64,000 bases of DNA from the human T2T-CHM13v2.0 reference genome, Homo sapiens (GCF_009914755.1 NC_060947.1), one strand, 5' to 3'. Shown: positions 27,515 through 36,799, counted from the stretch's first letter. Notes: generated by a model not told the origin, from the sequence alone. Numbers and translations are program-made.

Positions 27515-28738
<1,224 letters not shown>

Positions 28739-33646: not shown

Positions 33647-34110
33647 AACCAAGTGGCCGAACTTAGTACCACCAATGCTGGAACAAAGTGACATCATGTG
33701 CCTTGCATTGTGATGCAACTAAGAATACAACATCTCTTGTGAAGTTGTTTTATCAAAAAATGTTTAACCTAAATCTAACGAGAAAACAGACAAATCCAAC
33801 TTACAGACATTCTGAAAAGCGACGAGCTTGGACTCTTCAAAAATGTCCATGTCATGAAAGACAAAAAGCCAGGGAACGCTTCTAGATTAAATATTAATCA
33901 AAGGAGTTAACTAAACTTGAATTTTGATTGAATCCTGACTTCCCCCTCCAACAAGAAGGAAAAAAAAATACAGCCGTAAAGCTATAAAATTTAAATATGC
34001 TCTGCATATTACAGTGTGGATTATTGCATTGTGGTTAAGTAGGGGTCCATCCTTGTTTTTAAGAGACAGATGCTAAAATGTTAAGGTGAAATGTCACTAT
34101 GTCTGCAAGT
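33647..34110 (+). mobile_element. Old L1 (L1MC/L1ME-type) 3' fragment, host of the retrocopy; its 5' part is at ~31040-31110
   Basis: Similar to the in-window L1 copy at 24120-25140. Confidence 0.65.
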
Positions 34111-34359
34111 AACACTCAGGCAAATTGTGTTAAGGGCTAAAATTCTGAACCCGGTTGAGGAATTTTGTATCAACATCTAGTCAACACTGTCCAGGGACTA
34201 GGCAGAACAAGCAGTTTCCCTTTGCATGGCTGAGAAGCAGGCAGCCTGACCCTCTCCTCTCCGGGTGGCACGAGTAACCCTCAGCACTTAAAAGCAGCTG
34301 CAGGCCTGTGGGGAACGCAGGCTGAGGCTGTGGTTCCACTTCTGCCAGAGGACACACAC

Positions 34360-35000
34360 ATGCACGCATGCTGTATGCACTTTATGGCAGTCCACGGAAA
34401 GCGCAAAAGTGCAAGGGTGAGGCTGCGCCCCTCCCCTAACCCCCACAGGAACATACGACAGCAGCACGTGCTGTCTGGAGCACTTTACAGCAGTCACGTC
34501 TGCACAAGGGCAAACCCACGCCCTTTCACCCCCACAGAACAGCGGCAGCTGCTGTCTGGAGCATTTTACGGCAGTCAGGCAAAGGTGCAAGGATGAGGCC
34601 AGGCCCCTTCACTCTCTCAGAACCGCTGCACGTGCTTGTGGAGCACTTCACAGCAGTCATGCAGAGGCGCAAGGGCGAAGCTACGCCCTTTCATTCCCGC
34701 AGAACATTGGCATGTAGTCTGGAGCACTTTACAGCGGTTACATGAGGCGCGAGGGCAAAGCCACGGCCTCGCACGCCCGCAGAACAGGAGCACGTGCTGT
34801 CTGCAGCACTTTAACGGCATTCAGGCAAAGGCCCGCGGGTGAGACCACTGCCTTTCGCCCCAATAGCACAGCGGCACGTGCCGTCTGGAGCACTTTACGG
34901 TAGTCAACGCGAAGGCGCCAGGGTGAAACCACGCCCTTTCATTCCGACAGAACAGCGGCACGTGCTGTCGGCGCACTTTGTGGCAGCCACGCGAAGGCTC
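34360..35000. repeat. Diverged ~82-bp tandem repeat, 7 copies plus 1 degenerate, upstream of MPC1L
   Basis: Core CAGAACAGCGGCACGTGCTGTCTGGAGCACTTTACGGCAGTCA recurs, with E-box positions at 34465, 34546, 34629, 34711, 34791, 34875, 34959. Confidence 0.9.
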
Positions 35001-35500
35001 GAGGTCGCGAGCGTGTGCCCAGTCAGGGTCGGCTGCGGGTACTCGGCTTTGCGCTCTATTTCGTTGTGGTCTGGCTGTTGATCCGTAGGCACGCCTACGG
35101 CTATTCCATCATGGCGAGGATGGCGGTACTGTGGCGGAAGATGAGAGATAACTTCCAGAGCAAGGAGTTCCGGGAATACGTGAGCAGCACTCACTTCTGG
35201 GGTCCCGCGTTCAGCTGGGGCCTTCCGCTGGCTGCCTTTAAAGACATGAAGGCGTCGCCGGAGATCATCAGTGGCCGCATGACAACAGCGCTCATCTTGT
35301 ACTCGGCGATCTTCATGCGCTTCGCCTACCGCGTACAGCCTCGAAACCTGCTGCTGATGGCGTGCCACTGTACCAACGTGATGGCGCAGAGTGTGCAGGC
35401 CAGTCGCTACCTACTCTACTACTACGGCGGCGGCGGCGCCGAGGCTAAAGCCCGCGACCCTCCGGCTACCGCCGCCGCTGCCACCAGCCCGGGTTCCCAG
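34440..35500. promoter_or_regulatory. CpG-rich island over the MPC1L promoter and CDS
   Basis: High GC and many CpGs against AT-rich, CpG-poor flanks. Confidence 0.75.
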
Positions 35501-35521
35501 CCCCCGAAACAAGCTTCTTAA
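35111..35521 (+). CDS. MPC1L: Mitochondrial pyruvate carrier 1-like protein, intronless (136 aa)
   Basis: atcATGG start; [61 protein letters not shown]... with MPC1-family motifs [30 protein letters not shown]. Confidence 0.96.
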
Positions 35522-35654
35522 GAACTGAGAGGGCCTGATCTCATCTCTGCAGGTCACAAGCACTGAACTGCCATTCCTCCTGAAAAAAGACCAATGAAGA
35601 CCTCGGTTTTGACTCTAAAACAGTGCGAATCTGACTTAAACCTGCAGTTTGATT

Positions 35655-35660
35655 AATAAA
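35655..35660 (+). terminator. MPC1L polyadenylation signal
   Basis: AATAAA ~135 nt after the stop, T/GT-rich downstream. Confidence 0.75.
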
Positions 35661-36799
35661 GAAATACAAAGTAACATTGAACCGAAGTTGAGTGTTGCCT
35701 TTTTTGTAAACTGAAAATGTTTTTTAGAAGGGGAGGGTGGATTAGCTGGTCTTTCTCTTCACAGGACCTGCAACTCAAGATAGTTTATATGGGGGAGGAA
35801 GACTTTGAATGAAAAGCACTTCACAGTATTCACTAACTCGTAGCTTTTTTGTTTTTTTTTTAAAGCTCTCTTGGGAACGTATTTCTGTTACTTGTTTTGG
35901 ATGTCCAGAGCGAACAGGGTTGCTTAGTATCACACATGACTCACAGCTTGGTGCAGTCACAAATCTGTATATCAAAAAAAGTCTGGGGGCTCTTTCTACT
36001 GAGGGAAATGTTTCGAAGTGGGTTTTAAATGAATGTCGTGAGGTACAGTGTAGCCTCAAGAGAACCTAGGATCTCTTGGCGACGGAGAGCAATTATAGAA
36101 TCTGCCATGGAGACAGGATAAACAATTCTGAGGACAATTGCCATCAACCCTGGATTCTAGGTAAATAGGTAAAACGACAAAATCGTTCTTTCCTCCTTTA
36201 GTTATCCTTAAAAACGGGGGAAATGGCAGTTTGCAAAACTGGTTACCCATCAACTCTGTTGAATGCTAGCTAGAGCTGGGGGTGAGGGGTCAGTGGTCAA
36301 CAGCGGCAGCTCAGAGTATTCCCCTAGGAATCTTGGGGGTTCCTACGGATTCTTAAACCACAGAGCCGAGAAAAGGGAAACGAGAAGGGTGGGGTGGTGG
36401 GGCAGTAGGCTAAGGCCATTACCTACATAGCAGAGGCTGCCCTCTACGATTTGACCCAAAAATTTCCCCTGTCCCTGCCTCTGAAGGATGCGGAAAGTTC
36501 CAGAGTGTTTACTGGTGAACCCCAAAGTAGGTGTTTAGAAGTGTTTGAACCCTGCTTTAGATAGAGGTTTCAAATGCAAAGAAATTTAAAAGCACTATCA
36601 AAGATTCTGAAGACGTTAGTTCTTGGACAAAACAGGCACATTAGTGGAATTCTAGAAGATTCCCCTTTATCTTCTCTGGCATTAAAGCAGAAGTCCTCTT
36701 TGTGGGCAGTCTGTGTCACAGTTTCACGAAATTCTGCATGTGGGGACGGGGTTAGCGGGGGAGTGGGGGGTAAGGGGGTGGGAAACGAACTATGGGGGT

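What the first reader, a model, noticed from the sequence alone, without database searches (positions are those of the whole stretch)
34360..35000. Diverged ~82-bp x7-8 tandem array of E-box modules immediately upstream of MPC1L
Seen: units spaced 80-84 bp with consensus ~CAGAACAGCGGCACGTGCTGTCTGGAGCACTTTACGGCAGTCA..GCAAAGGCGCAAGGGTGAAGCCACGCCCTTTCA. Perfect CACGTG at 34465, 34629, 34791, 34875 and 34959; variants CAGCTG (34546) and CATGTA (34711). The core is visibly better preserved than the linkers, and the array ends ~110 bp before the ATG. Known: MPC1L is a testis/germ-cell retrogene, and CACGTG is bound by MAX/MGA (PRC1.6 germline-gene silencing), MYC, USF and HIF in a CpG-methylation-sensitive way. 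Inference: an old minisatellite exapted as the retrogene's promoter, acting as a multimeric methylation-sensitive switch. The ~82-bp period is close to 8 helical turns, roughly phasing the sites.
Basis: partly seen in the sequence, partly recalled or inferred. Interest (0 to 1): 0.8.

Follow-up and report, generated by a model that had tools for sequence, protein, structure and literature searches.

The report
E-box minisatellite forming the MPC1L promoter
Eight decayed copies of an 82-base repeat, five still carrying the CACGTG E-box, sit over the start site of the germ-cell gene MPC1L and most likely act as its promoter, but whether the E-boxes themselves matter remains untested.

Summary
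Window 34361-35006 is a degenerate tandem array: TRF gives period 84, 6.6 copies, 71% matches. It has six full units, one diverged 5' unit and one truncated 3' unit. The array is unique in the human genome. Units are 66-79% identical with no higher-order structure, so it is an old, non-homogenised "fossil" minisatellite.

Two corrections. The RefSeq TSS (34973) lies inside the last unit, 9 nt after the last E-box. The best-kept block is TCTGGAGCACTTTAC, not the E-box, which ranks 14th of 78 hexamers.

Evidence that the E-box is constrained is only suggestive, and it is confounded by a CpG gradient rising toward the TSS.

A promoter role is likely. The PRC1.6 switch is untested here and gets no support from mouse E2f6-knockout tables.

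The CACGTG excess at MPC1L is already tabulated in print. E-box-bearing and promoter minisatellites are a known kind, and phased CACGTG triplets occur at hundreds of places in the genome. This is an ordinary-to-moderately interesting new member of a known kind.

The parts
34361..35006 (+). Whole degenerate minisatellite: 8 units of about 80-84 nt, with U0 diverged and U7 truncated
   Evidence: TRF; manual units and alignment; nhmmer profile built from U1-U6 recovers U0 and U7
34351..34452 (+). U0, the diverged 5'-most unit. Its E-box position is disrupted (reads CACGCA-TG in the alignment). CpG o/e 0.48
34453..34946 (+). Six full units U1-U6. Perfect E-boxes in U1, U3, U5 and U6; CAGCTG in U2; CATGTA in U4
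34947..35006 (+). U7, truncated last unit (about 60 of 83 model positions). It carries the last E-box and the annotated TSS
   Evidence: E 4.6e-9; hub annotation gives the TSS at 34973
34465..34470 (.). E-box CACGTG (U1), flanked G...C
34629..34634 (.). E-box CACGTG (U3), flanked G...C
34791..34796 (.). E-box CACGTG (U5), flanked G...C; first of three sites spaced exactly 84 nt
34875..34880 (.). E-box CACGTG (U6), inside a 12-nt palindrome
34959..34964 (.). E-box CACGTG (U7), which ends 9 nt before the RefSeq TSS
34973..34979 (+). RefSeq TSS (34973) inside the U7 copy of the best-conserved block. There is a BBCABW initiator-like match with its A at 34975
   Evidence: hub annotation; (consensus recalled); for block conservation
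34600..35500 (.). CpG island proper (200-nt windows with CpG o/e 0.78-1.18, GC 0.57-0.66). It spans the proximal units, the 5'UTR and the CDS
35111..35521 (+). MPC1L coding sequence (136 aa), intronless
   Evidence: hub annotation

Best explanation
Window 34361-35006 is an ancient minisatellite of eight roughly 82-nt units. It is found only at this locus and is no longer homogenised. It makes up the upstream half of the MPC1L CpG island and contains the gene's annotated start site in its last, truncated unit. It most likely serves as the TATA-less core and proximal promoter that this intronless retrocopy acquired at its insertion site.

Each unit carries three elements: a palindromic GCACGTGC E-box; 4-5 nt downstream, a better-conserved block (TCTGGAGCACTTTAC) that coincides with the initiation point in the last unit; and a decaying CCACGCCC (KLF/SP-like) box.

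The inferred mechanism is that one or more CACGTG-binding bHLH factors occupy the repeated sites when their central CpG is unmethylated, as in germ cells, and cannot bind when it is methylated, as in soma. On this reading the array multiplies one activating input next to an initiator.

Shown: the array, its uniqueness, its age structure, its overlap with the TSS and the island, and the absence of other canonical promoter motifs.
Inferred: promoter function of the repeat units, E-box occupancy, methylation dependence, and the identity of the factor, which is left open.
For: - Array and E-box positions are confirmed.
- The array is unique. BLAST of the 541-nt array against the 3.1-Gb assembly finds only itself. 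A 32-nt core pattern with up to 3 mismatches hits 3 places, all in the array, with 0 hits for the control.
- The TSS (34973) lies inside U7, 9 nt after the last E-box (hub annotation).
- The island spans about 34600-35500, while 34000-34359 has CpG o/e 0.19.
- In 34100-35300 there is no TATA, GGGCGG, CRE or T-box motif. The repeat's own elements are therefore the only recognisable candidates.
- The 5' E-box/initiator half of the unit is better conserved than the 3' half (230/264 vs 184/234, p=0.012).
- All five perfect E-boxes keep the same G...C flanks.
- If the E-box CpG decayed like the other six inferred CpGs of the unit, keeping 5 or more perfect E-boxes out of 7 has P=0.0045.
- A genome-wide promoter motif survey lists MPC1L among its top 12 protein-coding genes for CACGTG in the 1-kb upstream region (O/E 36.07; PMC12230723, Results section read).
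- Germ-cell expression comes from passages only: testis MPC1L/MPC2 complex (PMC10909473); round and elongated spermatids, as cited from Vanderperre 2016 (PMC11148293); human fetal ovary-specific, listed together with TEX11, FAM9B and FAM9C (PMC12120351).
- The parent MPC1 promoter shows no similarity to the array and has only 1 CACGTG in 1.3 kb.
Against: - The E-box is not the most conserved element: 32/36, rank 14 of 78, with 22 windows as good or better.
- The direct CpG comparison is not significant: 4/6 vs 13/36, p=0.17. With the CCACGCCC CpG added it is 8/12 vs 13/36, p=0.066.
- If the E-box CpG is not treated as hypermutable, P(5 or more of 7 perfect) is 0.10.
- Per-unit CpG o/e rises from 0.29-0.64 in U0-U2 to about 1.2 in U6-U7. 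Intact E-boxes in the three proximal units may therefore reflect island protection only.
- Three of the eight units have lost the site.
- Phased CACGTG triplets at 74-90 nt are common in the genome: 516 matches, against 1044 for the reversed control. Nearly all the listed ones are tandem repeats. Multiplicity alone is what tandem duplication produces.
- An E-box centred about 11 nt upstream of the start site would overlap the pre-initiation complex footprint. That fits a repressor or a mis-set TSS as well as an activator (inference).
- I saw no occupancy, methylation, CAGE or orthologue data.
- The survey notes that ChEA does not list MPC1L as a MYC target.
Confidence: 0.5

Rival explanations
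1. Neutral relic inside a CpG island. A unit that happened to contain CACGTG was amplified once. The copies have decayed independently ever since. The E-box count and its CpG retention are by-products of lying in a germline-unmethylated island centred on the TSS. Only the last roughly 100 nt, or the gene body, carry promoter function, and the distal units do nothing.
For: - Unit relationships are star-like at 66-79% identity with no homogenisation.
- CpG o/e rises along the array toward the TSS: 0.48, 0.64, 0.29, 0.86, 0.97, 0.65, 1.21, 1.19.
- The E-box is not the best-kept hexamer.
- CpG retention at the E-box is not significantly above other CpGs (p=0.17).
- There are hundreds of phased CACGTG triplets in other tandem repeats.
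Against: - The 5' half of the unit is more conserved than the 3' half (p=0.012).
- The distal units U1 and U3 keep perfect E-boxes with identical flanks although their other CpGs decayed.
- P=0.0045 for 5 of 7 perfect under unit-average CpG decay.
- No other recognisable promoter motif is present near the TSS.
Confidence: 0.3
2. The array is a multimeric landing pad for MGA/MAX within PRC1.6, which silences MPC1L in early embryo and soma and hands over to DNA methylation. Germ cells lift the block.
For: - CACGTG is the MGA/MAX motif at PRC1.6 sites, and most such sites lie near TSSs (PMC5806899, passages read).
- The promoter is a CpG island of a germ-cell gene.
- MPC1L is co-listed with meiotic X genes as specific to the human fetal ovary.
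- One E2F6 motif (GCGGGA) lies in the array at 34695 on the minus strand.
Against: - The mouse orthologue Gm4984 is not de-repressed in E2f6-knockout ES cells (log2FC -0.90, padj 0.0015, flagged neither up nor down). It changes only from about 0.03 to about 0.2 FPKM in knockout embryos, with padj NA (PMC8195999 supplements, files 7 and 8).
- It is absent from the 10 readable supplementary files of PMC8639735.
- There is no T-box motif.
- In the passage I read, MPC1L is described as post-meiotic in males. From memory, classical PRC1.6 targets are mostly meiotic or genome-defence genes.
- Caveats: the mouse promoter may lack the array, and the E2F6 arm is not the MGA E-box arm.
Confidence: 0.12
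3. Hypoxia- or ARNT-family-responsive promoter. Each E-box also reads as an RCGTG core on both strands and could bind HIF-alpha/ARNT, tying a mitochondrial pyruvate importer to oxygen status.
For: - The window's 11-mer ACGTGCTGTCT (exact in U1 and U5) is identical to the HIF-binding site plus flank printed for the human EPO 3' enhancer.
- There are 19 RCGTG matches in 34100-35300.
Against: - The match was found after the fact. Beyond the shared ACGTG it adds only 6 nt.
- The EPO ancillary sequence that follows is not shared (compare).
- From memory, the 5' flank of preferred HIF sites differs from the C found here.
- I found no expression evidence for hypoxic control of MPC1L.
Confidence: 0.05

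Closest known systems
hTERT intron-2 minisatellite VNTR2-1st, with CACGTG (MYC-family) sites in many repeats
   Same: A human minisatellite whose repeat units each carry the canonical CACGTG E-box, discussed as a cis-regulatory input to the host gene (PMC2915984, Background passage read).
   Different: It is intronic rather than at the TSS, it is polymorphic in length, and it belongs to a somatic or cancer-regulated gene. The MPC1L array is old, decayed and overlaps the start site. Its polymorphism is unknown.
MSY2 minisatellite as the testis-specific distal promoter of DDX3Y
   Same: A sex-chromosome minisatellite that holds a germ-cell-specific transcription start site of a protein-coding gene.
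   Different: I saw only the search listing for PMC3039753; the detail is recalled, not read. It is Y-linked and a distal alternative promoter with spliced 5'UTRs. I know of no E-box logic there. MPC1L has a single annotated promoter.
PRC1.6 (MGA/MAX-E2F6-L3MBTL2-PCGF6) target promoters of germline genes
   Same: A CpG-island promoter of a germ-cell gene with CACGTG close to the TSS (PMC5806899 passages).
   Different: Those promoters typically combine single E-box, E2F6 and T-box motifs, not a tandem array. Here there is no T-box and one E2F6 motif in the array. The mouse orthologue is not E2F6-dependent. Occupancy is untested.
Genome-wide list of CACGTG-rich promoters (MAGNETIC server, NAR 2025)
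   Same: MPC1L is tabulated with O/E 36.07 for CACGTG in the 1-kb upstream region, among 12 top protein-coding genes. The list also holds the germ-cell carrier gene SLC25A31 and the X-linked TEX28/TKTL1 (PMC12230723, Results read).
   Different: That paper reports only the count. It does not mention a tandem repeat, the unit structure, the TSS overlap or germ-line regulation.
Promoter-proximal VNTRs such as the MAOA upstream VNTR, the INS VNTR and the IGH minisatellite with a USF-type site (all recalled, none read here)
   Same: Tandem repeats upstream of a gene that carry transcription-factor sites and modulate promoter output.
   Different: From memory, those are length-polymorphic and lie hundreds of bases from the TSS. 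The MPC1L array contains the TSS and shows no sign of recent turnover.

Membership tests
Minisatellite (tandem repeat, unit about 10-100 nt) | Head-to-tail copies of a 10-100-nt unit | tested here: met
   TRF: period 84, 6.6 copies, score 359. Eight units by profile search.
Minisatellite (tandem repeat, unit about 10-100 nt) | Length polymorphism or ongoing turnover (VNTR behaviour) | not testable with these tools
   Only one assembly is available. Star-like 66-79% identity with no lag structure argues against recent homogenisation.
Dispersed repeat (transposon-derived) origin | Other copies of the unit elsewhere in the genome | tested here: not met
   BLAST finds only the array itself. A 32-nt core with up to 3 mismatches hits only in the array. 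No repeat-family library (Dfam/RepeatMasker) was available, so very old derivation is not excluded.
CpG-island promoter | GC above 0.5 and CpG o/e above 0.6 over more than 200 nt, overlapping a TSS | tested here: met
   200-nt windows from 34600 to 35400 show o/e 0.78-1.18 and GC 0.57-0.66. The TSS at 34973 is from the hub annotation.
CpG-island promoter | Measured transcription initiation within the element | not testable with these tools
   Only the RefSeq 5' end is available; there are no CAGE data here.
PRC1.6 target promoter | E-box CACGTG near the TSS | tested here: met
   Five sites, the last ending 9 nt before the TSS.
PRC1.6 target promoter | E2F6 (GCGGGA) and/or T-box (TCACACCT) motifs | tested here: inconclusive
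   GCGGGA occurs at 34695(-) in the array and at 35203(-) in the CDS. T-box: 0. Motifs were taken from PMC5806899.
PRC1.6 target promoter | De-repression on loss of a PRC1.6 subunit | tested here: not met
   Literature tables, mouse only. Gm4984 log2FC -0.90 in E2f6-KO ES cells, not called up; in embryos padj is NA. Human MGA-KO tables could not be read.
PRC1.6 target promoter | Occupancy by MGA/MAX/L3MBTL2/PCGF6, and somatic promoter methylation | not testable with these tools
   No ChIP-seq or methylome access.
Hypoxia response element | RCGTG core | tested here: met
   19 matches in 34100-35300. An 11-mer is shared with the EPO enhancer site.
Hypoxia response element | HIF occupancy and hypoxic induction | not testable with these tools
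   No data available.
Coding repeat or structured RNA | Open frame maintained across units, or a match to an RNA family | tested here: not met
   ORFs in the array are 78 aa or shorter on either strand. Unit lengths are 80-84, so the frame is not kept. No Rfam match lies in the array at E up to 1.

The most novel reading that the evidence does not exclude
The MPC1L promoter was born by tandem amplification of one roughly 82-nt 'E-box plus initiator' module. Each unit is then a miniature core promoter, because the best-conserved block of every unit is the block at which transcription starts in the last unit. On this reading the array fires from several phased start sites, and copy number supplies the drive needed for an X-linked retrogene to be expressed after meiosis despite sex-chromosome repression. 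That would be a route to retrogene promoter acquisition distinct from the routes I recall being catalogued (nearby CpG islands, bidirectional promoters, transposon LTRs).
Probability: 0.15. Interest if true: 0.6.

Novelty: new member of a known kind. Interest (0 to 1): 0.33.

Why it matters
If the repeated E-boxes are functional, MPC1L would be a compact natural example of a retrogene whose whole promoter was made by tandem duplication of a transcription-factor site. It would also be a convenient reporter for methylation-sensitive bHLH binding in germ cells.

In practice the payoff is modest. Mouse knockouts of the orthologue are fertile (PMC11148293). E-box minisatellites and minisatellite promoters are already known. 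The CACGTG excess at this gene is already tabulated.

What this check mainly adds is the anatomy:
- the TSS lies inside the array;
- the initiator-like block is better kept than the E-box;
- a CpG gradient confounds any claim of selection.

Tried and rejected
- Higher-order repeat. TRF's 163-nt row suggested a two-unit repeat. Mean identity by lag is flat (71, 69, 71, 70, 74% for lags 1-5), so I rejected it.
- Dispersed-repeat origin. I found no other copies. The weak nhmmer hits elsewhere in the window (E 0.32 or worse) are noise.
- Promoter carried over from the parent gene. I located MPC1 exon 1 on contig 6. Neither the array nor the 5'UTR resembles the MPC1 5' region. The retro-insertion's 5' boundary could not be defined.
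- Coding or RNA function of the array: rejected.
This was a recollection of a database motif. The authors' in vivo consensus is WANSWCGW, not an E-box. The supplements held were too small to contain target tables. The lead is dropped as unsupported.
- PRC1.6 target lists. 'Mpc1l' gave 0 hits. The mouse symbol Gm4984 appears only in the E2f6 expression tables and is not de-repressed there. Supplements of the human HEK293 MGA-knockout study were unreadable.
- The primary MPC1L paper (Vanderperre 2016) is not held, so its statements reach me only through citing passages.
- 'Not in print'. A full-text search for 'MPC1L' plus 'tandem repeat' found 0 papers. 36 papers mention MPC1L at all. The search does not cover subscription journals.

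Full report
**1. Is it there?**

Yes. Tandem Repeats Finder reports 34458-34998 with period 84, 6.6 copies, 71% matches, 4% indels and score 359. It also gives an alternative 163-nt row with score 395.

I cut the region into eight units anchored on the E-box position and aligned them. U1-U6 (34453-34946) are full units of 80-84 nt. U0 (34351-34452) is a diverged 5' copy. U7 (from 34947) is truncated.

A profile HMM built from U1-U6 alone finds U7 (34948-35006, model positions 2-61 of 83, E 4.6e-9) and U0 (34361-34434, E 2.6e-7). Nothing else in the 64-kb window scores better than E 0.32.

CACGTG starts at 34465, 34629, 34791, 34875 and 34959; CAGCTG is at 34546 and CATGTA at 34711. These five are 5 of the 13 CACGTG in the window. 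All five share the flanks G...C, giving the 8-nt palindrome GCACGTGC.

**2. Uniqueness and age.**

The window's own assembly could be searched. The 541-nt array matches only itself. A 32-nt core pattern allowing 3 mismatches matches three places, all inside the array, and the reversed control matches none. So this is a single-locus minisatellite, not a fragment of a recognisable dispersed repeat. No Dfam or RepeatMasker library was available, so a very ancient transposon origin remains open.

Units U1-U6 are 66-79% identical to one another. Mean identity does not depend on distance in the array: 71, 69, 71, 70 and 74% at lags 1-5. TRF's 163-nt row therefore does not reflect a real two-unit repeat, and there has been no recent homogenisation.

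By my own hand calculation, the Jukes-Cantor correction gives about 0.25-0.45 substitutions per site between units. With recalled mammalian rates of 1-2.2e-9 per site per year, that means tens of millions of years, on the order of 50-150 My. This is probably an overestimate, because the sequence is CpG-rich. 'Old minisatellite' is therefore supported.

**3. Where it sits.**

The hub annotation places the single MPC1L exon at 34973-35681. The start site is therefore inside U7, 9 nt after the last E-box. The array is not merely upstream of the promoter; it is the promoter region.

CpG observed/expected is 0.76-0.79 over the array, 0.95-1.0 over the gene, and 0.19 in the 360 nt before the array. 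In 200-nt windows the island proper runs from about 34600 to 35500.

Short-motif scans used recalled consensus strings, except the PRC1.6 motifs, which were taken from PMC5806899. In 34100-35300 they find no TATA, GGGCGG box, CRE or T-box. They find two exact CCACGCCC boxes (34516 and 34929) and two GCGGGA motifs (34695 minus strand, and 35203 minus strand in the CDS). An initiator-type BBCABW match has its A at 34975, 2 nt from the annotated start.

The array has no long ORF (78 aa at most). Its unit lengths do not keep a reading frame. It has no Rfam match at E up to 1.

**4. Retrogene context.**

MPC1L is intronless. Its protein matches separate exons of the parent gene on contig 6: residues 7-24 at L005 6731-6784 and residues 30-58 at L004 731-817, about 16 kb apart.

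Nucleotide similarity is confined to coding sequence, at 75-77%. The array and the MPC1L 5'UTR show no similarity to the MPC1 5' region. The MPC1 promoter holds a single CACGTG in 1.3 kb.

The promoter was therefore not copied with the gene, as expected for a retrocopy. I could not define the 5' boundary of the retro-insertion.

**5. Is the E-box 'core' preferentially preserved?**

Only partly. In U1-U6 the 5' 44 columns (E-box through ...GCAGTCA) match the consensus in 230 of 264 cells. The 3' 39 columns match in 184 of 234 (Fisher p=0.012).

Within the 5' half, the best-kept stretch is TCTGGAGCACTTTAC, whose hexamer windows score 34-35 of 36. The E-box hexamer scores 32 of 36 and ranks 14th of 78, with 22 windows scoring at least as high. 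In U7 this best-kept block is where the annotated transcript begins.

For CpGs, I inferred eight ancestral CpG positions in the unit. The six away from the E-box and the CCACGCCC box are retained in 2-3 of the 8 units each, and most of their losses are to TG or CA. The E-box CpG is retained in 6 of 8 and the CCACGCCC CpG in 5 of 8.

Restricted to the six full units, the figures are 4/6 for the E-box against 13/36 for the six others (one-sided Fisher p=0.17). Adding the CCACGCCC CpG gives 8/12 against 13/36 (p=0.066).

A simple binomial model gives P=0.0045 for 5 or more of 7 perfect E-boxes if its CpG decays like the others. It gives P=0.10 if that CpG is treated as an ordinary pair of sites.

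The evidence for constraint is thus suggestive and depends on the model.

It is also confounded. Per-unit CpG o/e rises along the array: 0.48, 0.64, 0.29, 0.86, 0.97, 0.65, 1.21 and 1.19 from U0 to U7. The three intact proximal E-boxes lie where all CpGs are protected.

**6. Phasing.**

The spacings are 81, 83, 82, 80, 84 and 84 nt. At 10.5 bp per turn, only the three TSS-proximal sites (84 + 84) share a helical face. The others are scattered, at 257, 223 and 154 degrees.

**7. How unusual is it?**

In the whole genome, three CACGTG spaced 74-90 nt apart occur 516 times; the pattern is palindromic, so the reverse count is the same. The reversed control pattern occurs 1044 times.

In the 50 forward rows shown I count roughly 23 separate loci. 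Nearly all are tandem repeats, many of them subtelomeric. Arrays of E-boxes are thus a routine product of tandem duplication. What distinguishes this one is that it lies on a TSS.

In print, the MAGNETIC server paper (PMC12230723, Results section read) queried CACGTG in 1-kb promoters. It lists MPC1L with O/E 36.07 among its 12 top protein-coding genes and notes that ChEA does not list it as a MYC target. It says nothing about a repeat.

A full-text search for 'MPC1L' with 'tandem repeat' found 0 papers. Thirty-six papers mention MPC1L at all.

**8. Which factor?**

This is unknown.

*PRC1.6.* Passages of PMC5806899 confirm that CACGTG is the MGA/MAX motif at PRC1.6 sites, with GCGGGA for E2F6 and a T-box motif. 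Here there is no T-box and only one GCGGGA in the array.

The mouse orthologue is Gm4984 (PMC11148293). In the E2f6-knockout tables of PMC8195999 it is not de-repressed in ES cells: FPKM goes from about 1.5-1.9 to 0.8-1.1, log2FC -0.90, flagged neither up nor down. In embryos it changes only from about 0.03 to about 0.2 FPKM, with padj NA. It does not appear in the readable supplements of PMC8639735. The human MGA-knockout supplements could not be opened.

The mouse promoter may lack the array, and E2F6 is not the E-box arm of the complex.

*HIF.* The window 11-mer ACGTGCTGTCT (exact in U1 and U5) equals the HIF site plus flank of the human EPO 3' enhancer as printed in two papers. This match was found after the fact, adds only six bases beyond ACGTG, and does not include the ancillary sequence.

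*TCFL5.* My recollection of an E-box-type database motif was not borne out by the authors' in vivo consensus, WANSWCGW.

**9. Expression context (passages only).**

- MPC1L/MPC2 is the testis form of the carrier (PMC10909473).
- Expression is described as restricted to round and elongated spermatids, citing Vanderperre 2016, and mouse knockouts are fertile (PMC11148293).
- In human fetal gonads, MPC1L is listed as highly ovary-specific (log2FC above 2 against control tissue and against testis), together with TEX11, FAM9B and FAM9C (PMC12120351).

Expression in fetal ovary, where germ cells are globally demethylated (my own knowledge, not from a call), fits a methylation-gated germline CpG-island promoter. 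It says nothing about the E-boxes specifically. The primary MPC1L paper was not held.

**10. Verdict.**

The most likely reading (about 0.5) is a fossil minisatellite recruited as the TATA-less CpG-island promoter of a retrogene, with repeated methylation-sensitive E-boxes next to an initiator-like block.

The main rival (about 0.3) is that the distal units and the E-box multiplicity are neutral by-products inside an unmethylated island. The PRC1.6 switch (about 0.12) and a HIF element (about 0.05) remain possible but have no positive evidence here.

Known relatives exist. These are the hTERT VNTR2-1st with CACGTG repeats (PMC2915984 passage) and the MSY2 minisatellite holding a testis TSS of DDX3Y (search listing only; details recalled). 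This is a new member of a known kind, of modest interest.

Noticed in passing
window 34467-34477 and 34793-34803: The 11-mer ACGTGCTGTCT (E-box half plus flank) is identical to the HIF-binding site and flank printed for the human EPO 3' enhancer in two papers. The identity does not extend into the EPO ancillary sequence.
   Followed up: partly
window 34351-35030: CpG observed/expected rises unit by unit toward the TSS, from 0.29-0.64 in U0-U2 to about 1.2 in U6-U7. The 5' edge of the CpG island therefore falls inside the array rather than at its border.
   Followed up: yes
window 27934 and 27960: Two further CACGTG lie 26 nt apart inside a (TA/CA)-rich simple tandem repeat, within the masked stretch 27860-28596. 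This is an example of E-boxes generated by repeat expansion with no nearby gene start.
   Followed up: no
window 35414-35493 (+): There is a weak Rfam match to the mir-1913 precursor (25.6 bits against a gathering score of 105, E 0.035). It lies in the GC-rich tail of the MPC1L coding sequence, which encodes the Gly/Ala/Pro-rich C-terminus absent from MPC1. It is almost certainly chance.
   Followed up: no
window 35111-35521; L004 731-817, L005 6731-6784: I found matches between MPC1L and the parent MPC1 only within residues 7-102 (40% over 7-102 with two in-frame stops, and 69% over 25-59; 76% over 30-58). The last ~34 residues gave no significant match. The frame around the CDS is open for 205 codons.
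   Followed up: no
window 34453-34946, 5' half of each unit: From memory only, the E-box-to-CTTTAC stretch faintly resembles part of the MIR SINE consensus. No repeat library was available, and the genome searches found no other copies, so this is untested.
   Followed up: no
genome-wide, e.g. G000:C1:728738-729327, C2:3628033-3628471, C4:1393357-1393828: Many subtelomeric GC-rich minisatellites carry CACGTG in every unit or every other unit. Several of the top genes in the published CACGTG-promoter list may owe their rank to such repeats.
   Followed up: no
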